From contig NSJL01000027.1 of the NCBI GenBank assembly GCA_002634385.1, positions 1-50,783 on the forward strand: 50,783 nt of DNA, given 5' to 3'. This document shows, one piece after another, positions 10,967 through 32,111 of the stretch. Made by a program: the position numbers and the translations under genes. Within the stretch, counting starts at the first letter, position 1. Each line of letters starts with the position of its first letter. Below the pieces are notes generated by a model. It was not told the origin of the DNA. It saw only the letters and a list, made by a program, of their open reading frames with translations, and ran no database searches. Origin of the DNA: Nitrospira sp. GTDB lineage: Bacteria; Nitrospirota; Thermodesulfovibrionia; Thermodesulfovibrionales; Dissulfurispiraceae.

Positions 10967-10983
10967 GGCATCCTCCTCTCTCC

Positions 10984-12618: not shown

Positions 12619-12622
12619 AGTT

Positions 12623-17311: not shown

Positions 17312-17336
17312 TGTCCCTCCTGTTTCAAATCGATTA

Positions 17337-18203: not shown

Positions 18204-18204
18204 G

Positions 18205-19107
18205 TTACCCTACGGCTCCTGCGGTGCGGTTTTTTCTTCCCGTAATTTCTGCTTCGTCCAGGATGCGGGGAATCCGGTCGTGCCACGGCGTGGTCATCAT
18301 GAGGTGAACCCCGGAGCAGACAGCCGCGAGTTCCCTTACAAGCCTGACGGTTATATCGATGCTTCTCTTCTCAACATCTCCTTTTTCGAGCTCCTGTAGT
18401 ATCGATTCAGGAATATGCACACCCGCGACGTTTTTATTCATGAAGCGCGCGGAGGCTGCAGATTTCAGAATGAATACCCCTGCAAAAACCGGGATATCAA
18501 GAAAGGCCACCCCCTCCAGGAACCGGACATATCTATCGACGTCAAAGATGGGCTGAGTCTGCAGAAATTCGGCTCCTGCCTCAGCTTTGAGACGCGCCTT
18601 CCCGATCTCTTCCTGAGGTTTTGCCGCGCCGGGGTCGAGGACAGCGCCGAGACAGAAATTCGGTATGCCGTCAAGGCGCTTTCCACCCATGTCAAAGCCC
18701 TTCTCGAGATTCCTCGCTGCCGCCAGCAGCTGGACAGAGTCAAAGTCGAAGACCGGTTTTGTGCCCGGATTGTCCGAATCCGTCGCCTCGTCACCTCTCA
18801 GACAGAGAATGTTCCTCACTCCCAACGCATAGGCGCTCAGAAGCTCTGACTGCAGACTGATCCTGTTTCTGTCGCGACAGGTGATCTGCATTATGGGCTC
18901 TATCCCCATCTCTCTTATCTTCACGCAGGCCGCGAGGGCGCCCATCCTCATATTCGCCCCGGGCATATCAGCGACATTTATCGCATCAACCCTCCCCTTC
19001 AAAAGCTCGATACCTTTTACCGTTTTGTATACAGCTGTGCCTTTCGGCGGGATTACGTCTGTCGTTACAACAAACTCTCCGGATCTCAGCTTTTCCTTGA
19101 ATGTCAT
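18205..19107 (-). CDS. metF: 5,10-methylenetetrahydrofolate reductase family protein (MetF-like, paralog 2)
   Basis: Start at the ATG at 19107 (MTFKEKLRSGEFVVTTDVIPPKG) with a GAGGTGG RBS. Same family as the adjacent gene. Confidence 0.7.
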   Translation of the reverse strand: MTFKEKLRSGEFVVTTDVIPPKGTAVYKTVKGIELLKGRVDAINVADMPGANMRMGALAACVKIREMGIEPIMQITCRDRNRISLQSELLSAYALGVRNILCLRGDEATDSDNPGTKPVFDFDSVQLLAAARNLEKGFDMGGKRLDGIPNFCLGAVLDPGAAKPQEEIGKARLKAEAGAEFLQTQPIFDVDRYVRFLEGVAFLDIPVFAGVFILKSAASARFMNKNVAGVHIPESILQELEKGDVEKRSIDITVRLVRELAAVCSGVHLMMTTPWHDRIPRILDEAEITGRKNRTAGAVG

Positions 19108-19118
19108 CTTTCCACCTC

Positions 19119-19991
19119 TCATCTCTCGGGAATAACCCACTTCTTGCTTCTCTGTATATTCTTAAGCCTCATGAGCTGTTCCTCGGCTATCGTAAAGGTA
19201 TGTTCGGGGGCAGGGAATTTGAAGGCTTCTACCTCATCCTTGAAGGCTTTGACCGCTTTCGTAGTCTCAGCCCAGAGATTCACATATTTTTTTACGAATT
19301 TCGGAACAAAGTGTTCATAGAGTCCGATCATGTCCTGAGTGACAAGGGCCTGTCCGTCACAGTGGAGGCCGGCACCTATTCCTATCACGGGGATTTTCAG
19401 CGTTTCCGTAATGATACCGGCGACGCTCGGAGGCAAACATTCTACGGAAAGAGCAAAAGCCCCGGCTTTCTCGCATTCCATAGCGAGGTCGATGAGGTCT
19501 GACGCCTCTTCAGCGGTCTTCCCCATCACGGCAAACTTGCCGTATCGTGACACAAACTGGCGTGTAAGACCGATATGAACCATGGTAGGGATTCCGGATT
19601 CCACTATGGCCCGTGCGATCTTTACCACTTCCGGACCGCCTTCGATCTCTACACCGTCAGCACCTCCTTCCTTGATAAATCGCCGGGCATTCCTCCTGGC
19701 ATCCTCTTCGGTGTTGTAATCCATAAAGGGCATGCAAGACAGGATAAACGCCCGTTCTACGGCATTGGCGACAGCCTTGGTATGATGAATCATCTCCTCC
19801 ATAGTCACCGGGAGGGTATTCTTATATCCCAGTCCGGTCATGCCCAGAGCGTCGCTTACGAAGATGATGTCGATGCCGGCCTGATCGATAATCCTGGCAA
19901 ACGGATAATCGTAGGCGGTCAACATGCTTATTTGTTCGCCCTTTTTCTTCTTGGCCGTGAGAGAAGAAACACTCACCTTGTTTTTTTCCAT
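19119..19991 (-). CDS. panB: 3-methyl-2-oxobutanoate hydroxymethyltransferase-like enzyme (PanB family) with about 25-aa C-terminal amphipathic extension
   Basis: Strong PanB pattern (ISMLTAYDYPFARI..DIIFVSDALGMT..TLPVT..IPVIGIGAG..DGQALV). 290 aa vs about 264 for canonical PanB. The extra C-terminal tail is TIAEEQLMRLKNIQRSKKWVIPER. Confidence 0.8.
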   Translation of the reverse strand: MEKNKVSVSSLTAKKKKGEQISMLTAYDYPFARIIDQAGIDIIFVSDALGMTGLGYKNTLPVTMEEMIHHTKAVANAVERAFILSCMPFMDYNTEEDARRNARRFIKEGGADGVEIEGGPEVVKIARAIVESGIPTMVHIGLTRQFVSRYGKFAVMGKTAEEASDLIDLAMECEKAGAFALSVECLPPSVAGIITETLKIPVIGIGAGLHCDGQALVTQDMIGLYEHFVPKFVKKYVNLWAETTKAVKAFKDEVEAFKFPAPEHTFTIAEEQLMRLKNIQRSKKWVIPER

Positions 19992-20005
19992 TTTTTTCTC
20001 CGCTC

Positions 20006-20563
20006 CTATATGATTACGCTGCTCAGGCTGCTGTGGGGTGCAGGTATAATGGTCGTCATTGTCAGCATGCCGGACTCTTCGATAGCAGCCGTCGCAGCAT
20101 CAAGTGCCGCCTCGACGGAATAAAGCTCACCGGTCAGGGTTACAAAAGCCTTTCCCCCCAGCCCTCTCGCCAAACGTATCTCTATTAGCATTATGTTTGC
20201 CGCTTTTGCCGCCGTATCTGCGGCGATTATGCATGAAGCGATCGAAAAAGTCTCAATAACTCCCAGAGATGCGACTTCCTTCACCTCGGTAGTTCCCCGG
20301 ATGGCCGGGAAGATGCCTTCATGGATGTTCGGGATCAGGAGACGATCGACAATTTGATCTCCACCGATCTGAACTCCAACTTCGATGGATGCTTCCACCG
20401 GGGCGACCAATCCGCAGATGACAACACTGTATTTTCCAGGACAGGTAGGCGTCGCCTCCAATAACTCTATAGGCGCTTTCTTCATCATATAATCACATGC
20501 CATAATTCCGCGTGCAATACTTCTGAATTCTATGAGGCCCAGGGCCTGTCGCGCTTCCGTCAT
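20006..20563 (-). CDS. pduT: BMC-T shell protein, PduT-like (tandem BMC domains, putative [4Fe-4S] site)
   Basis: 185 aa. Two BMC domains. The conserved TCPGK Cys is at the position of PduT C38. Confidence 0.8.
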   Translation of the reverse strand: MTEARQALGLIEFRSIARGIMACDYMMKKAPIELLEATPTCPGKYSVVICGLVAPVEASIEVGVQIGGDQIVDRLLIPNIHEGIFPAIRGTTEVKEVASLGVIETFSIASCIIAADTAAKAANIMLIEIRLARGLGGKAFVTLTGELYSVEAALDAATAAIEESGMLTMTTIIPAPHSSLSSVII

Positions 20564-20575
20564 CCGGCTTTCCCC

Positions 20576-21904
20576 TTACGCTGCTTCGATAACAATCTCA
20601 CCTCCGCCAATCCTCTGAACCCTGCCCGAGACCGATGCGTGGTATTTAGCACCCATATATCCGTCGGGTATATCGGCGATCAGATCGCCCTGCCGGATAA
20701 CATCCCCCTCCTCAACTACCGGGACAGCCGGAGCGCCGATGTGCTGTCGTAATCCTATCTTCACCTGCCTGACCGAATAGGGCGTCTCCTTGAGCGGTGC
20801 AATCTCCTTGTACTTTTCCAGTCCCAAACGGCTCAGCAGTCGTTCTGATGGCACTTTACGATGCTCCATTTCCTGCCTCGCCTTCACTTTGACTTTTTGC
20901 GGTTCATGCCGGTAGCCTCTCTTGGCGAGTTCAGCCCTGATTTCCATGTTTACCTGCCGCGGGGAGAGACCTTGAACACAGGCATAGGTCTCGCAAAGGC
21001 CACATCCGGAGCATGCTGCCGCTGAAGTAACGACATCAGGAGCGACGACATTCCCATAATCAAGAGACCTCATGATTTTGTGGGGCTGAAGACTATGGCC
21101 CAGCAGATACCGTGGACAGAGCTCGGTACAGTAACTGCACTGAGTGCAGGCCGACTTGATCAGACGGATATTCCGCTGTAAGGGTCTGGTCTTTAAGGTG
21201 ATGAGGGGATGGTTCTTCGGCAGCACGAGAAGCATTCCCAGGGTTTTATTGACCGTACCTGAAACATCGAACGTAACCCTGCCCATCATCGGGCCTCCGG
21301 CGATCATCGCATATTCCTCGACTTTTGCACCACCGGCCATCGCTATCACGTCACCGAAAGCAGTCCCGACCGGAACCCTGAAAGTCGCCGGATGTTTCAC
21401 CTCGCCAAGAACTGAAATATGGCGGTGAGTAACCGGAATGCCCCTCTCGGCTTCCGAGATGTTGAAAAGAGTTCCGACATTCTGCACAACCACTCCCTCG
21501 GAAAGAGGGAGATTCCCTTCGGTAATGACCCTGCCCGTTACCTCGTGCACCAATACAAACTCGTCCCCGGCAGGATAGAAATCCCGGAGCAGGAAAAGCT
21601 CGATGTTCTCCTTGCCCGAGATTGCCATCGAGAGACTATCGATGGCGGTTTTATATTTCTTCTTTAGAGCCACTATGCCTTTTGAAGCGCCGACAGAGTC
21701 CATGAGGAGGGCAAGGCCGGCGATTACCGTATCGGCGTGTTTCACCATGAGCTGCTGGTCGGCCTGTGCCAGGGGTTCACATTCCGCCCCGTTGGCAATC
21801 ACCATTTCCGCTTTTGATCCGGATTTGATATGACTTGGGAAGCCCGCGCCTCCCGCACCGATTATCCCGGCGTCTCTCACCCTCGTCACAAGGTCTGTCG
21901 TCAT
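20576..21904 (-). CDS. pduS: PduS/RnfC-like flavo-Fe-S oxidoreductase (BMC-associated; cobalamin-reductase-like)
   Basis: 442 aa. RnfC-type N-terminus (GIIGAGGAGFPSHIK). Two ferredoxin-type Cys clusters (CTQCSYCTELCP; CSGCGLCETYAC). Confidence 0.75.
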   Translation of the reverse strand: MTTDLVTRVRDAGIIGAGGAGFPSHIKSGSKAEMVIANGAECEPLAQADQQLMVKHADTVIAGLALLMDSVGASKGIVALKKKYKTAIDSLSMAISGKENIELFLLRDFYPAGDEFVLVHEVTGRVITEGNLPLSEGVVVQNVGTLFNISEAERGIPVTHRHISVLGEVKHPATFRVPVGTAFGDVIAMAGGAKVEEYAMIAGGPMMGRVTFDVSGTVNKTLGMLLVLPKNHPLITLKTRPLQRNIRLIKSACTQCSYCTELCPRYLLGHSLQPHKIMRSLDYGNVVAPDVVTSAAACSGCGLCETYACVQGLSPRQVNMEIRAELAKRGYRHEPQKVKVKARQEMEHRKVPSERLLSRLGLEKYKEIAPLKETPYSVRQVKIGLRQHIGAPAVPVVEEGDVIRQGDLIADIPDGYMGAKYHASVSGRVQRIGGGEIVIEAA

Positions 21905-21917
21905 GCTGAAACCGTTC

Positions 21918-23507
21918 TCATAGTATCCTCATATATCCCGAAAGCACGCAACGCCGTTCCCTGGTAAAGTGGCGTGCAGAGGTCATGCCCTCTCCGGTAA
22001 AACTCGCGATCGTCAAGGATGCACATCCTTCACCTTCGACTCCGAGGCCGTCATAACAGGGTCCGTTCTTCACAAAAAGCGTACAGTCCGCTTCCTTTGC
22101 CATTTTCGTAAGTGTTTCCACGCTCAGGGAATGCATCACCGCTGTATGTCTGAACCCATGCTCCGCCCTGACTGCCATACTAATGGCCTGGTCTACGTTC
22201 CTGGCCCTGACGACAGGCAGCACAGGCATCATCAACTCGCTCCAGACAAAGGGATGATCATAGTCCGTCTCGGCAATTACCAGTTTTATATCGTCACCGA
22301 CCTGAACCCCTATCTCCGCCAAAATTACACTTGCATCCCTTCCTATGAAATGCAGGTTCGGGACTCCGGCTTTGCCCGGACCCCGGTTCTCACTGAAAAG
22401 AACTTTCTCCAGCCGTTTGAGCTGCCATGGGCTTAGCTCATAGGCGCCGAGCTCTTTCATATGGAATTTGAGCTCATCAGCCACCGCCTCGACTACGATG
22501 AGCTCTTTTTCGGCAATGCACGGTATGTTATTGTCGAAGCTTGCACCATTCACAATGTCCTGCGCCGCTCTCCTGATATCTACTGTCTCATCAACGACAA
22601 CAGGTGGATTTCCCGGGCCCGCCGCTATCACCTTCTTGCCGTGCTTCATCGCTTCTCTTACTACCTTCATCCCGCCCGTGACCACAAGGAGCCTTACATC
22701 ACGATGGTCCATAAGGGTCTGGGCATTGGCTATCGAGGCCTCGCTGGTCGACGTGAGAAGGTTGGACGGTCCTCCGGCCGACCGTATTGCTTTATTCAGC
22801 AATCTCACGGTTGCCAGGGAGACTTCTCTCGCTGAGGGATGGGGGCTGAAAACCACGCTGTTGCCGGCCGCCACCATCCCGATTGCGTTGCAGGCAACAG
22901 TGGCAGAAGGATTCGTCACTGGCGTTACCGCTGCAATCACGCCCCATGGTGCACGCTCGCCGAGAGTGAGTCCGTAATCCCCGGTATAGGCAGTCGTTGA
23001 TACATCTTCAACACCGGGGGTCTTTTCCGCTATCAACTGGTGCTTGATGCTCTTACTGTCAAGCCTGCCCATCCTGGTTTCTTTTACGGCCATCATCGAC
23101 AGGACATCGCCGTTTTTCATGAGTGCGTCCCTCATGGCGTCTATTATCTTCCTCCGTGTACTTAAGGAAATATCCTTCAGTTCACGCTGGGCCTTTTTTG
23201 CCGAGGCCACCGCTCCGTCGATGGTGGCAAAAATTCCGCCTTCTTCCCCGTCGGGGGCGGAAAGGACATGGATGTCGCCCGACTGCTGAACCGGGGGCGC
23301 GGCCGTACCTTTGGCGGGCGGCACAAAATCCTTTTTCCTGCCTCCATTCAGAGGCGCGTCATCATAGGCCAGGCTCCTCCTCTTCTTCCACGTAAAATCT
23401 CCTGAACTGCTTACGTGAGAAGGAGCGTGCACGTTGGACTTGAAGGTAATTCTGTCCAGAGCCTTTTCTACAAGTGACTCTACAGGACTCTCCTCATCAT
23501 CAGCCAT
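21918..23507 (-). CDS. CoA-acylating aldehyde dehydrogenase (PduP/EutE family) with about 100-aa N-terminal extension containing an encapsulation-peptide-like helix
   Basis: 529 aa. ALDH domain with catalytic-Cys motif NNIPCIAEKE. N-terminal amphipathic helix (ESLVEKALDRITF) followed by a low-complexity Pro/Gly/Lys linker. Confidence 0.8.
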   Translation of the reverse strand: MADDEESPVESLVEKALDRITFKSNVHAPSHVSSSGDFTWKKRRSLAYDDAPLNGGRKKDFVPPAKGTAAPPVQQSGDIHVLSAPDGEEGGIFATIDGAVASAKKAQRELKDISLSTRRKIIDAMRDALMKNGDVLSMMAVKETRMGRLDSKSIKHQLIAEKTPGVEDVSTTAYTGDYGLTLGERAPWGVIAAVTPVTNPSATVACNAIGMVAAGNSVVFSPHPSAREVSLATVRLLNKAIRSAGGPSNLLTSTSEASIANAQTLMDHRDVRLLVVTGGMKVVREAMKHGKKVIAAGPGNPPVVVDETVDIRRAAQDIVNGASFDNNIPCIAEKELIVVEAVADELKFHMKELGAYELSPWQLKRLEKVLFSENRGPGKAGVPNLHFIGRDASVILAEIGVQVGDDIKLVIAETDYDHPFVWSELMMPVLPVVRARNVDQAISMAVRAEHGFRHTAVMHSLSVETLTKMAKEADCTLFVKNGPCYDGLGVEGEGCASLTIASFTGEGMTSARHFTRERRCVLSGYMRIL

Positions 23508-23521
23508 CTTTCACCTCCCTC

Positions 23522-23842
23522 TCAAAATCTGACAGGCGGAGCCTGCCAGATGGGAACTTTCTGGAACTGCGCCTCGCCCGAGAGCTCCACGGTGTCCACG
23601 ATACCGATGATGACCGCGTCCACCGGCCTGTCCTTGGTGATCCCCGTTTGCCGGGCTGAGCTCTCCAGGGTATAGAGGACCACATCATTCGTTCCCGCTC
23701 CAACGGCATCCACGGCTATTTCATATCCTCCGCACGGCTCCCCTTTGTAGTCCACTTTCTCGACAATCAGAAACTTTGAACCGGCCATGGTCTGTACCCG
23801 CTGGTCGCACACGACCGTTCCTACAACCTTTCCTAAGAGCAT
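23522..23842 (-). CDS. BMC vertex protein (BMC-P; EutN/PduN/CcmL family)
   Basis: 106 aa, MLLGKVVGTVVCDQ...VDAVGAG pattern. Confidence 0.8.
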   Translation of the reverse strand: MLLGKVVGTVVCDQRVQTMAGSKFLIVEKVDYKGEPCGGYEIAVDAVGAGTNDVVLYTLESSARQTGITKDRPVDAVIIGIVDTVELSGEAQFQKVPIWQAPPVRF

Positions 23843-23858
23843 CGGACCGCTCCTTTCC

Positions 23859-24218
23859 TTACCGCGTTATTTTCTTTGATTCTTTATGTTCAATAGCCTT
23901 TTGCTCGTTCTGCTCGATCATCTCCCAGTAATCCCTGCCCCTGCCCAGCGGCAGTGCGATGTCCACATTATCATGCGGCCGCGGGATCAAATGGACACTC
24001 ACTACATCGCCCACCTTTCCGGCCGCTATGCCCCCTGCCTCAAGAGCGGCCCTTACCGCCGCCACGTCGCCCCTGACAATTGCAGTCACATAACCGCCGC
24101 CGATCTTCTCATAGCTAACCAGTTCAACCTTTGCAGCCTTCACCATTGCATCAGAGGCCTCCACCATTGCGGCAAATCCCCTTGTTTCGATCAGTCCCAA
24201 AGCTTCCGTCGTACGCAT
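23859..24218 (-). CDS. BMC-H hexameric shell protein (PduA/EutM-like) with about 25-aa C-terminal tail
   Basis: [54 protein letters not shown]...VHLIPRPH, canonical BMC-H. Confidence 0.85.
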
Positions 24219-24301
24219 TCGTATTCTCCTTTCCTTACCTGTTTCAGGTTATGTATGCACGCTCTGCAGAGCGGCGAGTAAATGTTTTTCCTGCCAATGC
24301 C

Positions 24302-25063
24302 CTATGACTCTTTTTTCGACGGGGAATTCTCCCTGCCTGTTATCGACTCAAGAGCGCGGTGAACCGCATCCATGCCGACCTCCACGTCCCTCTCTTCACC
24401 ACAAAAGTAAAGCCTGCCGAAGGCACCGAAATTTCTGACCTCTATCAATTTGATATCAGCCGCTTTTTCAGCCTCATTCGCCGCGAAGTTGGCATATCCG
24501 GCCGGATGCACCTCAAGAATGTACAGCGTTTCTCCCGGCAAAATGTAGTTTGCACTTCGGCTCGTACGGTTTATCAGCTGGCACTGATAATCGTGAACTC
24601 TTCGTATCAGTTGACTTGTCAGTATTCTCGGCTTAAGCCTGTCCATCTCCGTTTTCTTCAAGGCTTCAAGAATCGCGTTTCCGGATTGGAGTACCTGGCC
24701 CTGATCGCTATGGTGGAACTCCAGCATTCCAAACGCCCTCTCCACCACCTGAGCGCCGGGCATCACGTCTGTGGCTTTGACCGCTACATCTGTCAGCCTG
24801 TTAATCTCGATGCCCGGCGCTATCTCAACAATTATCGACGCCTGCCCCACTATGGGAAGATATCCCCGTGCGGTTGCTGCAACCTGCGATGCCAATTGCG
24901 GCTGCATCTGGTCAATAAAGACATATACCCTTAATTCAATGGCACCTCCATCCGGCTGTTCGGTACTTATGGCGGACTGATATTTTGGTATCTCCGCAGC
25001 ACCTTTCGTACTCGATTCAGTAATCTTTATCCCTGACGTGGGATGTGACTTCGAAACTGCCAT
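24302..25063 (-). CDS. BMC-T shell protein with permuted tandem BMC domains (PduB/EutL-like); first gene of the long minus-strand cluster
   Basis: 253 aa. Internal duplicated BMC-like halves. AAGGAGG RBS 10 nt before the ATG at 25063. The AT-rich promoter region lies upstream (25064-25735). Confidence 0.55.
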   Translation of the reverse strand: MAVSKSHPTSGIKITESSTKGAAEIPKYQSAISTEQPDGGAIELRVYVFIDQMQPQLASQVAATARGYLPIVGQASIIVEIAPGIEINRLTDVAVKATDVMPGAQVVERAFGMLEFHHSDQGQVLQSGNAILEALKKTEMDRLKPRILTSQLIRRVHDYQCQLINRTSRSANYILPGETLYILEVHPAGYANFAANEAEKAADIKLIEVRNFGAFGRLYFCGEERDVEVGMDAVHRALESITGRENSPSKKES

Positions 25064-25735
25064 AATCTCTCAACCTCCTTCCTATTGAATAATTGCCATC
25101 ATCGTGTCAACATGCAGATGTCTTCTGCTCTACGTCCTGTAAATACCCCCGGGGGGGTCCTGAAGATTTCGGATCTTCCGGTTCAACCGTTCGCTCCGGT
25201 AATAAATTACGTATTGGGTGTTCAAGCCGCTTGTAGCGCCATTTTTATCCATTTATTGCTTTCATCTTACAGCCCATGAATATTTGTGTCAATAAAAAAA
25301 CCAATTATTTTTTTATAATTCACTTGCCTTACAGCGCACTAATTTCGATAATTAATCATTAAAATCAATATTATATACGTCTTTTAGAGTTATATTAATT
25401 GGTAAATATTATTGCTTTTTATCAATTATGAAAGGGGGCTAAGAGCGTCTAACAAAATGAACAAAAGCTGCTCCTGTGGTAAGTCTTTCTTCTGTCATTC
25501 CCGCGAGCGGAGCGGAGCCTGTCCCCGCGTGTCGGGGATCGCGGGGATCCTTCTTACAGCAGGAAAAGATTCCGGACGAGCCGGAACGACAAATTCATTT
25601 TGTCAGAGGCTCTAAATGATATTCTCGGCAAATCCGGAGCTCTTGCCATACGCTGAAACATTACGAAACCGTCTTTCCGGACTTCTACGGAAGACCTCCT
25701 TGTCTTGACTTTGAATTTTATGCAAAAATAAAAAA

Positions 25736-28003
25736 ATGACTAAAACGTTGCAGAATGAAGAAGCAACCAAGCTCGTTACTCTGATAAACGGCACTGATGC
25801 TACTTACATAAACGCGATTCTAAACGACATCTCCGACGGCCTGGAAATAATTTCCGGGTTTCCCAGAAACCGCATCTACTTATCACTTCCTCCATGGTAT
25901 GGATCTATGAAACAGGTTCTCGAACCGTTCCATGTAAGGGGATACTCACAACAGCTGGTAAAGACCACCCTCATCGCTACAGACGATGGCGTAAGTGAAA
26001 ATAGTTTCTCATTGTCCCGACCATTGCAGAAAACCCAGGAAGCGAAAGCTTTCAGATCGTCGAAGCCCCTAATGGCTGTGGAGTATGCGGAGGTAGATAT
26101 GGAAGGCTCTGTACTTCTGGGCGAAGCACTGGATATCAAGTCGTCGTTGCTATTTCCCCTTATAAGCGAGGGCAGAGTTCTCGGGGTAGTTGCAATAGAC
26201 AGCCCGGAGCAAACCGGGCAGGATGTTTTTTTGTCCTTCAAAGATGTTCTTGCCAAGTTCCTGGGGGCAATAGCACGAAAGTTGTCTGAAGTCATTGATT
26301 ATTGGGCGCCTGTCATTCAAGAGAGAAGGGCTGAAGAAGTCATGAAGGCATATAAAGCTTCATTGATTTTGGAACTACCGATCCAGGAGGGGATGGCGGA
26401 CCTTGCCGTATTGATGGTGTCTTCCGTAGATATTATGTGCGGCGAAAGAATAGAATGTCTTGTCCCATTTTCCCTGGCGTCCCGGGAGGAGAATGACAGA
26501 AAACTATTTGACGAAACCTTGAGGGACCATAAATACACCGGGAGAATGATCCTCGGTTCCAGGTCTTTCGTGCTCACGTCTGAATTAATGGAAAAAGGGC
26601 ATGACAAGGTGAAATTTACGTCTGAAGCTTCTAATACACCGTCCTTTTTTTCCTTAAGGGATTTTGCATGCTCCTTCGAGATAGAGCTCGAGAAAAAGGC
26701 GGGCTTTACCGCCGCCATATGTTACCCCGTTGTAGACAGACAAAAGAATCTGCTTTATGCAGTTATCTTCTACCTGAAACAGAAAGCTGTTAAAATGGTC
26801 AAAGCGATGCTTCCAAAGGTTGAAGGAAAGTCTCTCCTGAAGAGCAAAATGAAAGCTCTTGAGTCCAGGATAAATGCGGTCCTCTACGGCCTTTCAGCAA
26901 GCAGCCTCGTTACAGATCACCTCATAAAGATATGCCAGGTCAACAAAAGATATGAAGATTTTAACAAGATGAAAGACATAAGGAGGGGTCTTACCGAATT
27001 TCTTCATACCATTCTTTACAATATTATGGTGGTGAGCGGCGCTGACTGCGGGACAATCGGTGTTCTGGGAAACATTAATGGTAAGAAATACGTCATTGTC
27101 GAGAGAGAGGGCGGCATAGTAGTGGGCGCGAAGGCGGGAGATATCCACAACTATATACGGCCTGTCAGGGTCGGAACCCCCGGAGAACTCCTCACGAAAG
27201 AACTGTCCTTATCGGGAATGTCCGCTGCGCAGGGCAAAATCAAGGTGGCTCACGGGATAGAGGGAGTAGAGAACGACAGGTTTATGCCCTGTCCCGGCAT
27301 GAAATCAACCATTGCAGTTCCTATTCGGGTAGGGCAGGAAACGATAGCGATGATTAACCTTGGATCAAGGAAAAAGTATTTTTTCTCAGAAAAAACGCAG
27401 AAGCTTCTTGAGATGATTTCCGAAATCGTGGGCGCGAATGTTCATAAACTCATAATGAAATATGAAGTGAGCGTCGAAGTCCTCAAGCTTTATGGCGGCA
27501 GATACCCCTACATAAAGAATGACGCATTGAATTATCTGGCGGAACTGTATCATTCCTATTTCATCGATCTGCCCAAGTTCCTGGACGATATCTTGAAGAA
27601 TTACAAGTCCAGGCGCAGGGACAGGAAGGATAAGGATAATCACATAACGCTGAAAGATATCAAGACGACATACCTTGACAGCAGCCTGGAACGCATAAAC
27701 CTTGAGGAATATCTCGAAAAGGCCGACAACGATATTGCCAATTATATTTACCTGATGCTCACGAATCGGAAGGCTTCTTTTTTCGACGCTGTTCAGGATG
27801 CCTATTCAAGGCACGACATTTCGCGGAACGTAGCGCTGCTCGTTTACGAAAAAGCCAAGCTTACCTTGGCAAAGCCCCTGGTAACGAGAATCGCCGTTCA
27901 TCTGAACGTCTGTTCAGAGAATTACAAGGGCAACTATGACGAAAAGAAAAAAATAGAGAGATTCCGGCAATTCTATAAAAAAACCATTGGAATAAAAATT
28001 TAA
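25736..28003 (+). CDS. Large GAF-domain-containing hypothetical protein (putative sensor/regulator), encoded in an AT-rich segment
   Basis: 755 aa. At least two GAF-like segments (GSVLLGEALDIKSSLLFPLISEGRVLGVVAIDS; CGTIGVL...TIAVPIRVGQETIAMINLGS). No output domain recognized. Low GC relative to its surroundings. Confidence 0.45.
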   Translation: MTKTLQNEEATKLVTLINGTDATYINAILNDISDGLEIISGFPRNRIYLSLPPWYGSMKQVLEPFHVRGYSQQLVKTTLIATDDGVSENSFSLSRPLQKTQEAKAFRSSKPLMAVEYAEVDMEGSVLLGEALDIKSSLLFPLISEGRVLGVVAIDSPEQTGQDVFLSFKDVLAKFLGAIARKLSEVIDYWAPVIQERRAEEVMKAYKASLILELPIQEGMADLAVLMVSSVDIMCGERIECLVPFSLASREENDRKLFDETLRDHKYTGRMILGSRSFVLTSELMEKGHDKVKFTSEASNTPSFFSLRDFACSFEIELEKKAGFTAAICYPVVDRQKNLLYAVIFYLKQKAVKMVKAMLPKVEGKSLLKSKMKALESRINAVLYGLSASSLVTDHLIKICQVNKRYEDFNKMKDIRRGLTEFLHTILYNIMVVSGADCGTIGVLGNINGKKYVIVEREGGIVVGAKAGDIHNYIRPVRVGTPGELLTKELSLSGMSAAQGKIKVAHGIEGVENDRFMPCPGMKSTIAVPIRVGQETIAMINLGSRKKYFFSEKTQKLLEMISEIVGANVHKLIMKYEVSVEVLKLYGGRYPYIKNDALNYLAELYHSYFIDLPKFLDDILKNYKSRRRDRKDKDNHITLKDIKTTYLDSSLERINLEEYLEKADNDIANYIYLMLTNRKASFFDAVQDAYSRHDISRNVALLVYEKAKLTLAKPLVTRIAVHLNVCSENYKGNYDEKKKIERFRQFYKKTIGIKI

Positions 28004-28099
28004 TCTTTCCCTAATAGATTCTGTTTTCGAGTAGTGAGGCCAGTTCCTTCGGATAGTGGCCTTCTTCTTGTGATTTTCGTGTTACTGCCGCTTCAGTCT

Positions 28100-28480
28100 T
28101 CAGTGGGCACACCCTCCGCCCTGCGCGTGTCCTCCGCAGCTCTGCCGAAGGGTATACTCCGGCAACTGCATTGCGAGAAACATGTCCATGTTCTCCTTTA
28201 TGCGTGCCGCGCCTGCCTGAAATACTCTGATCCCCGACTGGTTGAGCCGGGTCAGCGCTCCGCCGCCGATGCCGCCGACTATGACGGCGTCAACCTTGTG
28301 GCTGTCAAGCGCCTTGAGCGGGTTGCATGCGCCATGCGCATGATGCTGGTCCCGGTTGATAATCGTCAGCGTATCTCGTGTCGCCGTATCCACCATCACA
28401 AACATCGGCGCTGAGCCGAAATGGCCGTAGACCATGCTCTCCATTCCCTCATCTTCCTGAACAGGAAAACATACTTTCAT
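28100..28480 (-). CDS. NifX/NifB-C-terminal-like (MTH1175/dinitrogenase FeMo-cofactor-binding family) small protein
   Basis: 126 aa, MKVCFPV..EDEG..S.VYGHFGSAPMFVMVD... pattern. C-terminal His/Cys/Gly-rich tail. Confidence 0.5.
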   Translation of the reverse strand: MKVCFPVQEDEGMESMVYGHFGSAPMFVMVDTATRDTLTIINRDQHHAHGACNPLKALDSHKVDAVIVGGIGGGALTRLNQSGIRVFQAGAARIKENMDMFLAMQLPEYTLRQSCGGHAQGGGCAH

Positions 28481-28782
28481 CGTGACGCCTCCTCCTTGAA
28501 TATAGTTTCCTCAAACACCAGGGCCTTGCACTCAGCAAGGGCCGTTGCCACCTTCTTTCGTGCACTTGAAAGAATTCGCTGCACAGTTCCCCGCGAGATG
28601 CCCATCCTCAGGCCCGCCTCCTCCTGCGTAAAGCCATCCCTGTCGCAGAGCCTCAGTGCCTCAAGCTCATCCCGGTAGAGAGGGATCTTCTCTATCGAGG
28701 GCATAGGGATGCCCGTCGGCTTGAAAGCTTTCCCTTTGAGCGGACAGCCACACTCCCGTGGTTTCCTGGGTCGTGGGGACAT
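28477..28782 (-). CDS. DUF134/UPF0251 family small DNA-binding protein (sigma-70 region-4-like HTH)
   Basis: 101 aa. Conserved ...LEALRLCDRDGFTQEEAGLRMGISRGTVQRIL.. HTH. Its stop overlaps the downstream NifX-like start by 4 nt (ATGA). Confidence 0.55.
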   Translation of the reverse strand: MSPRPRKPRECGCPLKGKAFKPTGIPMPSIEKIPLYRDELEALRLCDRDGFTQEEAGLRMGISRGTVQRILSSARKKVATALAECKALVFEETIFKEEASR

Positions 28783-28887
28783 CTATATCTTTCCGTCAAT
28801 AATGTGCATATGCACATTATAGGCAACTGTGAAACGAGTGTCAAGGTGCCGACATTGTTTGGTCACAGTCCAGCACTCTCTATTCGG

Positions 28888-29517
28888 TTAGGTGCGAATT
28901 ATGTAGTGACAGACAGTTTTCCTATTAAGTATATCGGTAAGATCGCCTAGTGAAATACGCTGCTTACAACCAACTTTAAAGGTTGAAGCGTTCGAATAGA
29001 AAATATCGAGATGATCCAATGGGTGAAAATGATCATTCTCGAGTTTGGGGTCATGTTCGTAGCGAATGTAACCTTCTTCGGATAACATCAAATCGCGAAA
29101 TAGCCCCCAAATGCTATTATCTGTATCGCATAAGTCATTTATCGGCTCGGCAAAATCTAATACATGCGTTTCAGCAAATACATCATCCGTATGAAGTAAC
29201 GACAAAATATCGGATGTAACTTTGTTGTCTACGGAGGGGCAACTCAGCATACTAAAAGCTAATTCGCCTCCATCATTACTTACGAAGAAAGGGAAGTTTA
29301 AAGAAAATACTTTGTCGTCTGTAGCAAAAAAAATACGGCTCATCTTGGCAACAATTAGCTCCATTGCTCCTACTGTGTCTTCTTTGGAAACCGGCACATA
29401 GGCGAGCATTATTTTTATCGCGTTCATCCAAAGCATAATGACGTCGGCCTTAGTCCTTATTGGAGAAAATATCTGGTCCGCTTGAAACCTGTCTATACGG
29501 AATTTGAACTGCTTCAT
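28888..29517 (-). CDS. Hypothetical protein (no recognizable domain), translationally coupled to the upstream helicase-like gene
   Basis: 209 aa. 4-nt overlap (ATGA) with 29514..31547. Low-GC codon usage like its partner. Confidence 0.45.
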   Translation of the reverse strand: MKQFKFRIDRFQADQIFSPIRTKADVIMLWMNAIKIMLAYVPVSKEDTVGAMELIVAKMSRIFFATDDKVFSLNFPFFVSNDGGELAFSMLSCPSVDNKVTSDILSLLHTDDVFAETHVLDFAEPINDLCDTDNSIWGLFRDLMLSEEGYIRYEHDPKLENDHFHPLDHLDIFYSNASTFKVGCKQRISLGDLTDILNRKTVCHYIIRT

Positions 29518-31547
29518 TCGACCCCTCGTGGCATTTTTCTATATAGGAAGTCGGCAGTTTCCTTTACATTGTCATAATCAAAATCCTCGCCCACAGTCTT
29601 CTTCAGTGCTTCAAGCAGATTGGACCGGAATGCTGGGCGGACATCCAATTCGTTAAAAATCTTCTCAGTAAAGTCGAAGAAAGACATATTGCTGTTCGAG
29701 GACTTAATGGCGGTCCTGATTCGATCCTTTTCTTGATCGGTCGGGGGCGTAACCTTAATAAGGCCATCGCGATTGATTATCGAAAGTCCCTCTTGAAGAG
29801 ACGGGAGCACTTCGGCATTGCGCTCTACCGAAACAATTACGAAAGACTGAAGAAAGGACCGGGTTAACGTCATGTAGAGCGCATTACGGTATGTATAGGT
29901 CCTACCCACGTGTTCGGTGATGCATATTACGAATGGAAACTCGAGGCCTTTGACGTTGTTACGATTGCTCACAAACAAACAACCGGGCATTTTCTGTTTT
30001 GATTCGTAGGCCTTATTTACGTTCCAACCCGTTGCACGCGGGATTACCTGCTGAAGCTTGTCAGCCAAGGAATATGTTTGCCTGTTGTTATCGAGCAGAA
30101 TTATCCCAATATCGTCGGGCGTAACAGTGGGGTTATCTCTTGCGATTCTGGAGACAATTTCAACGACCGAGTCTACAGCACAATCACTAAAATTACCCTC
30201 AGTTGGCACTATTTCAACGCTCGGTGTTTGTCTATCATCGATGTCCTCGAATCGTCGAAGAGGCTCTCGTTTGAGATTATATTCACCTGTCGCAACGTCT
30301 TTGTCGACAATGTAGCCGCATCTCTCCCATTCCTTATCCTCAAGCCATCGGAGCTTCTCTCTTTCGAACAGCCCCATTCCGACTGCATGAGCAAACATCA
30401 ACGTCTTCGGGTCGGTCCGGTAGCACTTGCTGAGGAGAAAATCTGGGAAAATGCTGGGTGCAACAGATTCGTCGAAAATGCTTTGGAAGATGTCTCCTGC
30501 GATGTAGACTACATTTCGAGTAACTGCCTTGCAAAGTTCAAAAAATGATTCAGGAAAATCCTGACTTTCGTCAATTAGGACGTAATCGAACAAGGGATGA
30601 TGTTCGGGTATGATCTTCAACTCAGCTAGAGCATCGGAACACGCCTTATCAAAAGGAGTCGTCACGCTCCATCGCTGAAAGGTCAGTCCATACCTGCTAC
30701 AAATATACCTATAAATGCCGGAGTTTTCGTTACTTGCAGAACCCCAAGCGTGTACGCACCACAGACGCTCGTCCCACTTAATCTGCTGTTCAACCTTCAT
30801 GAAATTGAAGAAGTCCGGAATGCGCCGACGCAAATCGGCAGCCAGAATTTTGTTGTGACACGTCAAAGCAATTCTCGTGTCTGGTCGCTCAACGTAGAGC
30901 TCCTTTAGTTTGTGCAAGAGCAGCTCGGTCTTGCCGGTACCTGATAGCCCCTGGATTCTTATTTGGGGTTTTTCTAAGCGTTGGTATACAAACCGAGTTT
31001 GATCACCATCAAACAGTTGAATTTTGCGCTTAACTTTATCAAGGCGGCATTCAGGTATATCGACGCCAACGCGTTTGATATCATTAATGCTGCCAATAAG
31101 CAGCGAAATGAGCAGTTCGGAGAGGCGCTGTTTCGCAGGGTCCTCCAGCGTACTGGCCGTCATAATCGAATCGACATTGAGTGCCGCGCCATCTCGCAGA
31201 ATTTCTACTAATTCGCTTTTCCATTTCCGGGGGCGTCCGATTGCGTCCTTGTATCGGTACTTATCTGATATAGAGCCGAGATCTTCGACAAAATCCTCAA
31301 CGAAGGATTCAAATGATTCAGCATCGCCCGAGAAGTCGATAAAGGTGAGCTTTCTCTTCGGAATGAGGAGAACCATTGCTCCCCTATGTGCGTAAGAATA
31401 TTTGTTGTCGCCGAGGGGTCTGTCAATTACATAAGCTTGAGTCTTCGTTGTCGCTGACCATTTCTGAAGTACATCGAGAAGACAGTGATTTGTTTCGTTC
31501 TTTTCGGCTTGAAGGAAGAAAAAATTACTATCCATAAGGGTCCTCAT
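29514..31547 (-). CDS. SF1 (UvrD-like/DUF2075-type) helicase-family ATPase with about 190-aa N-terminal uncharacterized (nuclease-related?) domain; candidate defence protein
   Basis: 677 aa. Walker A GLSGTGKTELL. Walker B/DExQ VLIDESQDF. SF1 C-terminal motif KGLEFPFVICI. N-terminal region with no clear match. Confidence 0.5.
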   Translation of the reverse strand: MRTLMDSNFFFLQAEKNETNHCLLDVLQKWSATTKTQAYVIDRPLGDNKYSYAHRGAMVLLIPKRKLTFIDFSGDAESFESFVEDFVEDLGSISDKYRYKDAIGRPRKWKSELVEILRDGAALNVDSIMTASTLEDPAKQRLSELLISLLIGSINDIKRVGVDIPECRLDKVKRKIQLFDGDQTRFVYQRLEKPQIRIQGLSGTGKTELLLHKLKELYVERPDTRIALTCHNKILAADLRRRIPDFFNFMKVEQQIKWDERLWCVHAWGSASNENSGIYRYICSRYGLTFQRWSVTTPFDKACSDALAELKIIPEHHPLFDYVLIDESQDFPESFFELCKAVTRNVVYIAGDIFQSIFDESVAPSIFPDFLLSKCYRTDPKTLMFAHAVGMGLFEREKLRWLEDKEWERCGYIVDKDVATGEYNLKREPLRRFEDIDDRQTPSVEIVPTEGNFSDCAVDSVVEIVSRIARDNPTVTPDDIGIILLDNNRQTYSLADKLQQVIPRATGWNVNKAYESKQKMPGCLFVSNRNNVKGLEFPFVICITEHVGRTYTYRNALYMTLTRSFLQSFVIVSVERNAEVLPSLQEGLSIINRDGLIKVTPPTDQEKDRIRTAIKSSNSNMSFFDFTEKIFNELDVRPAFRSNLLEALKKTVGEDFDYDNVKETADFLYRKMPRGVE

Positions 31548-32037
31548 TCTATAGGTGATCCATCAGCTGACTCAAAGGTTCCATTTCGATCGCAGAAAGG
31601 CAATATGGGCGAATCTTGAAATGGTGTCCGAATATACTATAATACTCGTCCCTCCCCTCCGCGCATAAATTCGGTGCACGCCATGCGCTGCAACTCAATT
31701 ACAAGCGATGTCTAATATAAGGCGTGGTTAGCACGAACGTTTGAGATTATCATAAAGGAAATGCACCCCGCAAGAGGGGACGTTTATATGTAAAAGGGGG
31801 ATTATTTTGCTTCAACTATTGCAATGGGTGCTGATGGATATGTACCGGATATAGTTACGGTAAGTGAACTGTTAGGGTATACTATTTGAAAACTACAAAA
31901 AATACCTTTATCCGGTGAAAGAGCGAAGAAAGTTAGCTGTGAAAGTTCTTGATTGAGTAGACCAGATTAGCACTGAGATTAGCGCGGAAACGGGTATTGA
32001 AGAAAGGGGTAATGGCTCAAATCCAGGAAAGAGTGAG

Positions 32038-32111
32038 TGGCGGTGCAGGGAATCGAACCCCGGACACTGCGGATATGAGCCGCATGCTCTAACCATCTGA
32101 GCTACACCGCC
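32038..32111 (-). tRNA. tRNA with CAT anticodon (elongator tRNA-Met or lysidine-modified tRNA-Ile2); no encoded CCA
   Basis: Reverse complement GGCGGTGTAGCTCAGATGGTTAGAGCATGCGGCTCATATCCGCAGTGTCCGGGGTTCGATTCCCTGCACCGCCA folds as a cloverleaf: 7-bp acceptor stem, D-loop AGCTCAGATGGTTAGAGC, anticodon stem TGCGG/CCGCA with loop CTCATAT, T-arm GGTTCGATTCC. Confidence 0.8.

What the first reader, a model, noticed from the sequence alone, without database searches (positions are those of the whole stretch)
28800..32111. Low-GC two-gene module (SF1 helicase-like ATPase with novel N-terminal domain + 209-aa partner) adjacent to a tRNA(CAT): candidate uncharacterized defence island
The composition shifts to AT-rich from about 28.8 to 32.0 kb, ending at a tRNA gene, the classic island integration context. 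This segment carries no recognizable integrase, attachment-site duplication or tRNA-fragment direct repeat, which leaves the 'island' itself inferred from composition and tRNA adjacency.

The 677-aa protein has Walker A (GLSGTGKT), DExQ (VLIDESQDF) and the UvrD-family KGLEF motif. It also has an N-terminal domain of about 190 aa with no obvious identity; a nuclease-related (NERD/PD-(D/E)xK-like) domain is one possibility.

Its gene is translationally coupled (ATGA overlap) to a 209-aa ORF with no known domain. Architectures of this kind (nuclease + SF1 helicase with a small partner) recur in anti-phage systems such as Nhi, Hachiman and Gabija, but this pair does not obviously match any of them.
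Basis: partly seen in the sequence, partly recalled or inferred. Interest (0 to 1): 0.7.

Follow-up and report, generated by a model that had tools for sequence, protein, structure and literature searches.

The report
Divergent Helicase–DUF2290-type defence gene pair
The two low-GC genes next to the tRNA are a horizontally acquired copy of a widespread, already catalogued but functionally untested gene pair (STM2767/STM2766 family) that turns out to be a distant sister of the known 'Helicase + DUF2290' anti-phage system, so it is a probable phage-defence module rather than a wholly new kind of system.

Summary
A 673/677-aa SF1 (UvrD-like) helicase gene and a 209-aa gene overlap by ATGA on the minus strand at 28888-31547. 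They are AT-rich (GC 0.46 and 0.40, against about 0.55 for the window) and lie 3' of tRNA-Met(CAT).

The pair is not unknown. NCBIfam names both proteins: NF053713 'STM2767 family helicase' (930 bits) and NF053714 'STM2766 family helicase-associated protein' (217 bits). I found no functional study.

The pair is a distant sister of the Helicase+DUF2290 anti-phage system (Rousset 2022):
- The helicase cores are homologous (hhalign E 9e-44).
- The partner family matches DUF2290 profile-to-profile (probability 89%, E 2e-6), sharing an IRxDxD...HPxxH motif.
- 7 of 40 partner-family members hit Pfam or PADLOC DUF2290 directly, but this partner does not. PADLOC-DB 2.0 models therefore do not identify the pair.

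Elsewhere the pair always keeps the same gene order. It sits in the P2 gpA-gpQ defence hotspot, at prophage ends, on plasmids, and beside type I restriction and Lamassu-like genes.

The nearest host relatives lack it. A 27-kb stretch beside the tRNA is absent from them, and it has no integrase or att repeat. The N-terminal domain shows no nuclease signature, and the partner model has no close match among solved structures. Defence activity and mechanism are inferred.

The parts
29514..31535 (-). SF1/UvrD-like helicase gene, 673 aa from the second ATG (the ORF can also be read from 31547, giving 677 aa). STM2767-family.
31041..31535 (-). N-terminal domain (aa 1-165), family-specific. Predicted beta-alpha-beta-beta-beta-alpha followed by helices. 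Conserved motif EDFxEDLGxISxKYxYxxxxGRxxxW.
   Evidence: Secondary structure. Invariant residues F75, D81, F82, D85, K92, Y95, G100, R101 and W105. No Pfam hit and no PDB hit. Not significantly similar to the N-domain of canonical Helicase-DUF2290 helicases (P 0.018). Found only in fragments of this same helicase family.
29826..31040 (-). SF1 helicase core (aa 166-570) with all motifs intact: Q motif FDGDQTRF, Walker A GLSGTGKT (30927-30950), motif II DESQDF (30555-30572), AGDIFQ, CYRT, KGLEF (29937-29951), TLTRSF.
   Evidence: Sequence. The motifs are invariant in alignments A5 and A7. hhalign against canonical Helicase-DUF2290 helicases gives probability 100%, E 8.6e-44 over residues 165-609.
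29514..29825 (-). C-terminal helical extension of the helicase (aa 571-673).
   Evidence: AF2 secondary structure. The first part, up to about aa 609 and including the conserved PPT/PTEEE segment, aligns with the canonical family.
28888..29517 (-). 209-aa partner gene, STM2766-family. A divergent DUF2290-like protein, coupled to the helicase gene by an ATGA overlap.
29005..29070 (-). Conserved core of the partner (aa 150-171): YIRYEHDP...HPLDHLD. It carries the family-invariant residues R152, D156, H165, P166, H169 and D171, plus D154, which is conserved in at least 90% of members. K181 lies just downstream.
   Evidence: Invariant columns. This stretch aligns to the DUF2290 motif PIRFDFD...HPxSH.
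31536..32036 (-). AT-rich leader and promoter region between the tRNA and the helicase gene. GAGGA Shine-Dalgarno at 31541-31545; weak sigma-70-like site at 31575->31546.
   Evidence: Sequence. Promoter scan gives 9 of 12 matches. No Rfam family and no credible ORF here.
32037..32111 (-). tRNA-Met(CAT). The GT2-tRNA synteny is conserved in relatives and breaks at the tRNA 3' end.
5036..32026 (.). Stretch of about 27 kb that is absent from the two closest relatives, where about 143 bp stands in its place (L017). It contains a corrinoid-methyltransferase and microcompartment metabolic cluster, a GAF regulator, DUF134 plus a NifB-like gene, and the helicase pair at the tRNA end. This is context, not part of the module's machinery.
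   Evidence: blastn and tblastx against L017 and L018. Pfam results.

Best explanation
The segment carries a self-contained, horizontally acquired two-gene operon of the STM2767/STM2766 family. This family is a deep sister clade of the 'Helicase + DUF2290' anti-phage system (PADLOC helicase-DUF2290; DefenseFinder lists it as an 'Rst' system).

Shown here:
- Family membership of both proteins.
- Homology of the helicase core, and remote homology of the partner, to the canonical system.
- Strict helicase-then-partner pairing in every partner-anchored locus.
- Location in defence hotspots and mobile elements in other genomes.
- Absence from the host's nearest relatives, and foreign base composition.

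Inferred mechanism:
- The SF1 helicase has all ATPase and translocase motifs intact. It probably acts as the ATP-driven sensor or motor on invading or replicating phage DNA.
- Its family-specific N-terminal domain probably serves as a recognition or partner-docking module.
- The small DUF2290-like protein is probably the effector or regulator. Its invariant polar residues (R152, D154, D156, H165, H169, D171, K181) lie on three successive predicted strands and the loop before them. If they cluster in space, which I could not check from coordinates, they would form a catalytic or metal- or ligand-binding site.
- The outcome would be a block of phage DNA replication or abortive infection.

The mechanism of the canonical Helicase-DUF2290 system is itself unpublished in the searchable literature, so this part rests on analogy with helicase-plus-effector systems such as Hachiman and Gabija.
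For: Family membership:
- NCBIfam equivalog hits far above cutoff for both proteins.
- PADLOC 'Helicase' PDLC03002 at E 5e-33. That model and the DUF2290 models score 988-1141 and 245-277 bits on canonical pairs, which identifies them as the Helicase-DUF2290 models.

Homology to the canonical system:
- Helicases: hhalign probability 100%, E 8.6e-44 over about 430 columns.
- Partner against DUF2290: probability 88.9%, E 2.4e-6, with the motif IRxDxD..HPxxH shared.
- 7 of 40 partner-family members hit Pfam PF10053 (best 2.2e-6) and PADLOC PDLC02998 (4.8e-6).
- The canonical system blocks phage T7 (PMC9122126) and has phage-specific effects in P. aeruginosa MPAO1 (bioRxiv 10.64898/2026.09.16.752016).

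Pairing:
- The helicase lies immediately upstream of the partner in all 13 partner-anchored viral loci, and the pair is intact in all other fetched loci.

Contexts:
- Between P2 gpA and portal gpQ, which is the published hotspot.
- Ends of lambdoid, P22-like and filamentous prophages.
- Next to AbiTii, type I HsdR, Lamassu-like CTD7-MC3-LmuB plus an integrase, a methylase plus MTaX1, and Mrr plus SNF2.
- On plasmids of Proteobacteria and Firmicutes.

Horizontal transfer:
- 79-80% amino-acid identity to copies in other contigs, one of them a Thiobacillus MAG, although the host is a Nitrospirota MAG.
- Nucleotide homology is limited to the two ORFs.
- GC and GC3 are anomalous.
- The pair is absent from the relatives L017-L023 and L057.
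Against: - No member of the STM2767/66 clade has a published phage-challenge result that I could find.
- This partner itself has no direct DUF2290 hit in Pfam or PADLOC. The profile-profile match covers only the C-terminal 60 columns.
- The N-terminal domains of the two helicase families are not detectably related.
- A lactococcal canonical DUF2290/Helicase gave no protection against the phages tested (PMC11381338).
- Some loci (Rhizobium; Thiobacillus) have mostly housekeeping neighbours.
- In this window no other defence gene lies nearby.
- The partner model has no close match among solved or viral predicted structures, so no catalytic activity can be assigned.
Confidence: 0.68

Rival explanations
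1. The pair is an accessory replication or maintenance module of mobile elements. In this reading it is a Rep/PcrA-like helicase with a loader or specificity factor that helps rolling-circle or prophage replication, and it is not a defence system.
For: - In the C. perfringens 11.8-kb plasmid the pair directly follows the replication initiator gene.
- In P2-like prophages it sits next to the gpA nickase.
- In Alcaligenes it follows an inovirus with Rep_trans.
- The best structural matches are AdnB and Rep-type helicases.
Against: - The gpA-gpQ interval is a documented cargo hotspot with interchangeable defence genes.
- Many copies lie where there is no replicon: this window, Thiobacillus, Rhizobium, and the E. 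coli prophage termini after the tail-fibre genes.
- The homologous canonical system confers resistance to T7 when cloned alone.
- No complete deposited phage genome carries the pair.
Confidence: 0.1
2. The pair is a selfish addiction or exclusion module, toxin-antitoxin-like or acting against plasmids or conjugation. It would be kept because its loss is deleterious or because it excludes competing elements other than phages.
For: - It is frequent on plasmids, 12 of the 38 matching records being conjugative.
- It lies beside TA genes (BrnTA near canonical copies; VbhA; Fic) and beside recombinases.
- The two genes are tightly translationally coupled.
Against: - The sizes and architecture (a 673-aa motor ATPase with a 209-aa partner) are not those of typical type II TA pairs.
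- Its position in prophage hotspots matches anti-phage cargo.
- This reading overlaps with, rather than excludes, the defence reading.
Confidence: 0.12
3. The helicase is a housekeeping DNA-repair or recombination enzyme (a UvrD, Rep or RecD paralogue) native to this organism.
Against: - It is absent from all eight related Nitrospirota loci that keep the HisA-DUF3108-GT2 synteny, five of them with the tRNA-Met called.
- GC3 is 0.50 and 0.42, against 0.65-0.81 in neighbouring genes.
- It is 79% identical to a copy in a Thiobacillus MAG, a different lineage from the Nitrospirota host.
- It occurs in only 32 of 5426 complete E. coli genomes.
- The TIGR pcrA and rep models score about 10 bits.
Confidence: 0.02
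4. The pair is a decaying, non-functional remnant of a transferred element in this genome.
For: - No integrase, no att repeats and no neighbouring defence genes.
- Only a weak promoter-like match upstream.
Against: - Both ORFs are full length.
- All family-invariant residues and helicase motifs are retained.
- The ATGA coupling and the Shine-Dalgarno sequence are intact.
Confidence: 0.06

Closest known systems
STM2767 family DEAD/DEAH box helicase with STM2766 family helicase-associated protein (NCBIfam NF053713 and NF053714; type genes next to fljBA-hin in Salmonella Typhimurium LT2)
   Same: Both window proteins match full length, far above the curated cutoffs (930 and 217 bits). Gene order and overlap are the same as in the Salmonella, E. 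coli, Pseudomonas and Burkholderia copies.
   Different: Nothing structural differs; this is a member. The window copy is 40% or less identical to the Salmonella type helicase (tblastn), and its partner is only 19% identical in alignment A4. It sits in a Nitrospirota MAG. The family has a name but no published function.
Helicase + DUF2290 anti-phage system (Rousset et al. 2022, PMC9122126; PADLOC helicase-DUF2290 models PDLC03002 with PDLC02998/02999)
   Same: - Two-gene operon with an SF1 UvrD-like helicase of about 670-720 aa followed by an overlapping or abutting gene of about 210-260 aa.
- Helicase cores plus the first part of the C-terminal tail are homologous (E 8.6e-44).
- The partner shares the C-terminal DUF2290 core motif.
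- Same kinds of location: plasmids, satellite and prophage hotspots, next to R-M and TA genes.
   Different: - Helicases are only 25-29% identical, and the N-terminal domains of about 165-180 aa are not detectably related.
- This partner gives no direct hit to Pfam PF10053 or the PADLOC DUF2290 models, and its N-terminal two-thirds do not align.
- With these PADLOC models the pair is not recognised as the system.
- Anti-phage activity has been shown only for the canonical clade.
Gabija (GajA OLD-family nuclease with GajB UvrD-like helicase)
   Same: A UvrD-like SF1 helicase paired with a second protein. Weak local GajB HMM hits (best E 2e-6, about 45-residue stretches).
   Different: The partner is not an OLD/TOPRIM ATPase-nuclease, gene sizes and order differ, and the GajB matches are confined to single helicase motifs.
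Nhi and NERD+UvrD single-gene nuclease-helicases
   Same: An N-terminal extra domain fused to an SF1 helicase. The PADLOC 'NERD+UvrD' model hits the helicase part (E 2.7e-9, residues 165-360).
   Different: The N-terminal domain has no NERD or PD-(D/E)xK sequence signature. The Nhi model scores E 0.019. This system needs, or at least always carries, a second gene.
Hachiman (HamA DUF1837 nuclease with HamB SF2 helicase)
   Same: The functional logic proposed here, a helicase sensor coupled to a small effector (PMC12278908, abstract as listed).
   Different: HamB is SF2 and HamA is DUF1837. Neither family is hit here.

Membership tests
STM2767/STM2766 pair (NCBIfam) | Helicase scores at least 550 bits on NF053713 over its full length | tested here: met
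   930.5 bits, residues 7-671 against model positions 2-664 of 665
STM2767/STM2766 pair (NCBIfam) | Partner scores at least 70 bits on NF053714 | tested here: met
   217.5 bits, residues 2-206 against model positions 1-206 of 207
STM2767/STM2766 pair (NCBIfam) | Helicase gene immediately upstream of the partner on the same strand | tested here: met
   ATGA overlap in the window. The same arrangement is seen in all 13 partner-anchored viral loci and in every other fetched locus.
Helicase + DUF2290 defence system | Helicase matches the system's helicase model (PADLOC PDLC03002) | tested here: inconclusive
   E 5.4e-33 and 112 bits, but only the core aligns (168-360 plus a second stretch), against 988-1141 bits full length for canonical members. 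The profile-profile comparison is unambiguous for the core (E 8.6e-44).
Helicase + DUF2290 defence system | Adjacent protein matches DUF2290 (Pfam PF10053, PADLOC PDLC02998/02999) | tested here: not met
   No hit for this protein at E <= 1 in either library.
Helicase + DUF2290 defence system | Partner is homologous to DUF2290 at superfamily level | tested here: met
   hhalign of A4 against A3 gives probability 88.9%, E 2.4e-6 with a shared motif. 7 of 40 family members hit PF10053 and PDLC02998 directly.
Helicase + DUF2290 defence system | The helicase N-terminal domain is shared | tested here: not met
   hhalign of the N-terminal slices gives P 0.018, probability 2.6%.
Helicase + DUF2290 defence system | Confers resistance to phage when expressed | not testable with these tools
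   Shown only for the canonical clade (T7, PMC9122126).
Gabija | GajA OLD-family ATPase-nuclease partner | tested here: not met
   The partner has no PADLOC or Pfam hit, and no such gene lies in the flanks.
Nhi / NERD-UvrD | N-terminal nuclease (NERD or PD-(D/E)xK) domain with catalytic residues | tested here: not met
   No NERD or nuclease Pfam hit. Nhi scores E 0.019, and the NERD+UvrD hit covers only residues 165-360. No conserved D..(D/E)xK on the predicted strands.
Hachiman | SF2 HamB helicase with a DUF1837 HamA | tested here: not met
   The helicase is SF1, and no Ham models are hit.
tRNA-integrated genomic island | Integrase gene in the element | tested here: not met
   No integrase or recombinase among the long ORFs scanned across 5.0-32.0 kb, which is not every ORF in that range.
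tRNA-integrated genomic island | Direct repeat of the tRNA 3' end at the far boundary | tested here: not met
   Only chance-level matches of 14 nt or shorter anywhere in the window.
tRNA-integrated genomic island | Absent from close relatives, with the breakpoint at the tRNA 3' end | tested here: met
   Relatives L017 and L018 are about 86% identical in DNA. Homology stops at window 32027-32034 and resumes at about 5035-5038.
tRNA-integrated genomic island | Deviant base composition | tested here: met
   True for the 28.9-32.0 kb pair only (GC 0.40-0.46, GC3 0.42-0.50). Most of the 27-kb stretch has normal GC.

The most novel reading that the evidence does not exclude
The STM2767/STM2766 clade is a distinct, still unnamed and widespread defence system. 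Its helicase gave more than 3,000 hits, and its partner family has 776 clusters at 50% identity. The 209-aa partner would be an effector with a fold unlike any solved structure and a new catalytic activity built on the R-D-D/H-H-D-K site. Its private N-terminal helicase domain would sense a trigger different from that of canonical Helicase-DUF2290. In that case it would define a new subtype or system that the PADLOC-DB 2.0 models I tested do not recognise.
Probability: 0.3. Interest if true: 0.6.

Novelty: new variant of a known kind. Interest (0 to 1): 0.42.

Why it matters
If the inference is right, a whole clade of Helicase-DUF2290-like modules goes unrecognised by the PADLOC-DB 2.0 models tested here. 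The clade is found in Salmonella LT2, in 32 of 5426 complete E. coli genomes, in Pseudomonas, Burkholderia, lactococcal and clostridial plasmids, and here in a Nitrospirota MAG.

The parent system has no published mechanism, and the DUF2290 fold has no close match among solved structures. Comparing two deep branches pinpoints the residues to mutate first:
- partner R152, D154, D156, H165 and H169, with K181 aligned to an arginine in DUF2290;
- helicase K202 and D322/E323.

The comparison also shows that the helicase N-terminal domain is the variable part and therefore probably the specificity-determining part.

For this window the practical result is more modest. It carries one likely defence operon, acquired separately from the surrounding metabolic cluster, at a tRNA-Met flank that varies between relatives.

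Tried and rejected
- Direct Pfam and PADLOC scans of the partner gave nothing.
- The afdb50 fold library was unavailable, so DUF2290 AlphaFold models could not be compared. DUF2290 proteins could not be folded because of the tool's input restriction.
- A profile search with the N-domain alone found only fragments of the same helicase family and no new architectures.
- hhalign of the N-domains of the two helicase families was not significant.
- The search for an att or tRNA-fragment repeat and for an integrase was negative.
- No match in 50,697 deposited phage genomes. Prophage copies appear only in IMG/VR contigs and bacterial chromosomes.
- Literature searches for STM2766/STM2767, the WP accessions and the NF accessions returned only papers on fljAB deletions.
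- I considered a 2H-phosphoesterase reading of the DUF2290 'HLTL' motif. I rejected it because the STM2766 clade has HLD at that position and there is no second HxT/S motif.
- I considered a PD-(D/E)xK reading of the partner's D156/D171/K181. It remains unsupported because no restriction-endonuclease-like fold was recovered.

Full report
**1. What is in the sequence**

The minus strand of 28.9-31.5 kb carries two ORFs. One is 29514..31547 (677 aa) and the other is 28888..29517 (209 aa). They overlap by ATGA, since 29514-29517 reads tcat on the plus strand.

- GLSGTGKT at 30927-30950
- DESQDF at 30555-30572
- KGLEF at 29937-29951

The real start is most likely the second ATG at 31535, giving 673 aa. 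Three things point to this. A GAGGA lies 5 nt upstream. Database homologues are 670-673 aa. Nucleotide homology with the nearest homologues begins exactly at 31535 and ends at 28901, just before the partner's stop codon.

tRNA-Met(CAT) lies at 32037-32111 on the minus strand with its 3' end towards the pair.

Composition is clearly deviant. GC is 0.463 for the helicase and 0.398 for the partner, against 0.546 for the window outside 24.5-32.1 kb. GC3 is 0.50 and 0.42, against 0.65-0.81 for adjacent genes.

There is no integrase and no duplicated tRNA fragment. The 490-bp leader holds no Rfam family and no credible ORF.

**2. What the proteins are**

The pair is not unknown to databases.
- NCBIfam assigns the helicase to NF053713, 'STM2767 family DEAD/DEAH box helicase' (930.5 bits, cutoff 550).
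- It assigns the partner to NF053714, 'STM2766 family helicase-associated protein' (217.5 bits, cutoff 70).
- RefSeq already uses these names in E. coli.

I found no functional paper. STM2767 is mentioned only as a landmark in fljAB deletions.

Pfam sees only generic UvrD/AAA pieces in the helicase and nothing in the partner.

PADLOC's best hit for the helicase is PDLC03002 'Helicase' (E 5e-33, 112 bits, core only). The partner has no PADLOC hit. I fetched annotated Helicase+DUF2290 loci from plasmids and scanned two of them. This showed that PDLC03002 and PDLC02998/02999 are the models of that system. Canonical pairs score 988-1141 bits on the helicase model and 245-277 bits on the DUF2290 models.

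**3. Relationship to Helicase+DUF2290**

*Helicases.* A profile of 18 STM2767-type helicases against a profile of 8 canonical helicases gives probability 100%, E 8.6e-44. The match covers residues 165-609, that is the whole SF1 core plus the start of the C-terminal tail. The N-terminal domains (about 165 versus about 180 aa) are not significantly similar (P 0.018).

*Partners.*
- A 40-sequence profile of the partner family against a 9-sequence DUF2290 profile gives probability 88.9%, E 2.4e-6 over 60 columns.
- The aligned stretch carries the most conserved residues of both families. The window family has (Y)IRYDxD-x8-HPLDHxD...K. DUF2290 has PIRFDFD-x8-HPxSH...R.
- Independently, 7 of 40 partner-family members hit Pfam PF10053 directly (best 2.2e-6) and PADLOC PDLC02998 (best 4.8e-6).

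I conclude that the STM2767/STM2766 pair is a deep sister clade of the Helicase+DUF2290 system. The PADLOC models available here do not identify this copy as that system.

**4. Structure**

*Partner.* The AF2 model is confident (pLDDT 83, pTM 0.80). It is an alpha/beta protein ending in a three-stranded meander (150-155, 168-173, 178-183). Those strands, with the loop before the second one, carry R152, D154, D156, H165, H169, D171 and K181.
- Foldseek against viral models gives nothing.
- Sequence profiles hit no PDB chain.

The fold therefore has no close match among solved structures, and I cannot assign an activity. The arrangement of these residues along the strands suggests a catalytic or metal-binding site, but I could not inspect the coordinates, so this is an inference.

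*N-terminal domain.* It is predicted as beta-alpha-beta-beta-beta-alpha followed by helices. This topology is compatible with a restriction-endonuclease-like fold. However, the strands carry no conserved acidic or lysine residues. The invariant residues (F75, D81, F82, D85, K92, Y95, G100, R101, W105) sit in the long helix and the following loop. The nuclease idea is therefore not supported. A profile of this domain finds only fragments of the same helicase family.

**5. Distribution and context**

The helicase has more than 3,000 hits at E <= 1e-5. They are scattered over Pseudomonas, Rhizobium, Burkholderia, Delftia, Alcaligenes, Laribacter and others. The partner family has 776 clusters at 50% identity. 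In all 13 partner-anchored viral loci the helicase lies immediately upstream of the partner, and the pair is intact in every other locus fetched.

Contexts found:

| Locus | Host or source | Context |
|---|---|---|
| L115, L104 | P2-like prophages | Between replication protein gpA and portal gpQ, the anti-phage hotspot defined by Rousset et al. (gpA and gpQ identified by PHROGs in L115; L104 by matching ORF layout only) |
| L002 | B. gladioli | Beside the tail genes of a P2-like prophage |
| L119, L120 | E. coli | Right end of lambdoid prophages after the tail-fibre assembly gene, once next to AbiTii and ssrA |
| L117 | Delftia | Inside a P22-like prophage |
| L116 | Alcaligenes | Next to a filamentous prophage |
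| L100 | 80%-identical homologue | 19 bp after a type I HsdR gene |
| L102 | 79%-identical homologue | Next to a Lamassu-like CTD7-MC3-LmuB trio and an integrase |
| L001 | P. aeruginosa | Next to a resolvase and a methylase plus MTaX1 |
| L118 | Freshwater metagenome | Near Mrr and SNF2 genes |
| Various | Acinetobacter, C. perfringens, Lactococcus, Pantoea, Salmonella | On plasmids |

The pair is present in only 32 of 5426 complete E. coli genomes and in none of 50,697 deposited phage genomes. This is the signature of accessory, mobile, defence-type cargo. A few loci (Rhizobium and Thiobacillus) have mainly housekeeping neighbours, which shows that the 2.6-kb unit also moves on its own.

**6. 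The 'island' in this window**

The host is a Nitrospirota (Thermodesulfovibrionales-like) MAG, although one source labels it Alphaproteobacteria.

Eight related loci conserve HisA-DUF3108-GT2, five of them with tRNA-Met called, and none has the pair. In the two closest relatives (about 86% DNA identity), homology stops at window 32027-32034. That is 3-10 nt past the tRNA 3' end. It resumes at about 5035-5038. About 143 bp in L017 therefore stands in place of about 27 kb in the window.

Those 27 kb encode:
- a corrinoid-methyltransferase, folate and microcompartment metabolic cluster;
- a GAF regulator;
- DUF134 plus a NifB-like gene;
- the helicase pair, at the tRNA end.

Most of this stretch has normal GC and no integrase. 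The tRNA flank is therefore a real variable site. The low-GC pair looks like a separate, more recent 2.6-kb acquisition, not a classical integrase-borne island.

**7. Mechanism**

*Shown:* both genes are intact, all SF1 motifs are present, and the genes are translationally coupled.

*Inferred:* the helicase senses or translocates on phage DNA using ATP. The DUF2290-like partner acts as effector or regulator through its conserved polar site. The family-specific N-terminal domain sets trigger or partner specificity. The outcome is a block to phage replication or abortive infection.

The canonical system is known only to block T7 and to have phage-specific effects in P. aeruginosa MPAO1. It was inactive against the lactococcal phages tested. 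No mechanism is published in the searchable literature.

*Rivals:* an MGE replication helper, since the pair sits next to Rep or gpA in some loci; an addiction or anti-plasmid module; a housekeeping helicase (effectively refuted); and a decaying remnant.

**8. Verdict**

It is a member of a catalogued family that I link to Helicase+DUF2290 as a divergent variant. The proposed N-terminal nuclease is not supported.

Novelty is moderate: a new variant of a known kind. The main value lies in pointing to an untested, widespread clade that these PADLOC models do not detect, and in naming the residues to test.

Noticed in passing
window 5036-32026: About 27 kb adjacent to the tRNA-Met 3' end is absent from the two closest relatives, L017 and L018. 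In L017 about 143 bp stands in its place. The stretch has no integrase and no flanking repeat, so it is either an integrase-less acquisition or a deletion in the relatives.
   Followed up: partly
window 5443-25063: A large minus-strand metabolic cluster. It holds four URO-D-like methyltransferases, a B12-binding corrinoid protein, a RACo reductive activator, DUF1638, a pterin-binding methyltransferase, formate-THF ligase, MTHFR, PanB, a hybrid-cluster protein, a Nuo51/RnfC-like protein, an aldehyde dehydrogenase and BMC shell proteins. It looks like a microcompartment-associated methyl-group/C1 pathway.
   Followed up: partly
window 25736-28003 (+): A 755-aa low-GC (about 0.45) protein with GAF domains. 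It matches the NCBIfam 'GPMC system transcriptional regulator' only partially (151 bits against a cutoff of 1200). It is probably the regulator of the neighbouring microcompartment cluster, and it accounts for the second low-GC stretch.
   Followed up: no
window 28799-28844: A perfect sigma-70 consensus promoter (TTGACA-17-TATAAT, 12 of 12) on the minus strand upstream of the DUF134 gene. Its -10 box overlaps a perfect 22-nt palindrome, ATAATGTGCATATGCACATTAT (28799-28820). This looks like an operator, possibly for autoregulation by the DUF134 HTH protein.
   Followed up: no
window 28100-28782 (-): A DUF134 (sigma-70 region 4-like HTH) gene overlaps a small Nitro_FeMo-Co (NifB/NifX-like) gene. 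The pair has normal GC and sits between the two low-GC stretches.
   Followed up: no
whole window / source record: One source names the contig 'MAG: Alphaproteobacteria bacterium K8I29'. All close relatives of the flanking genes are Nitrospirota or Thermodesulfovibrionales MAGs, so the label is probably a mis-binning or misclassification.
   Followed up: partly
L102 3274-8105: The 79%-identical homologue of the pair sits beside a CTD7-MC3-LmuB_C trio (Lamassu-like, ABC-3C type), a tyrosine integrase, KfrA and DUF2726. This is a compact defence island on an integrative element.
   Followed up: no
L006 4940-5604: In the C. perfringens 11.8-kb plasmid the partner is annotated as two ORFs (51 aa and 163 aa). 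The tblastn match covers only residues 56-206, so the partner may be frameshifted or split in that plasmid.
   Followed up: no
L018 about 4170-4270: The closest long relative has a run of N directly after the tRNA-Met, so the exact junction on that contig is not resolved. L017 gives the clean junction.
   Followed up: yes
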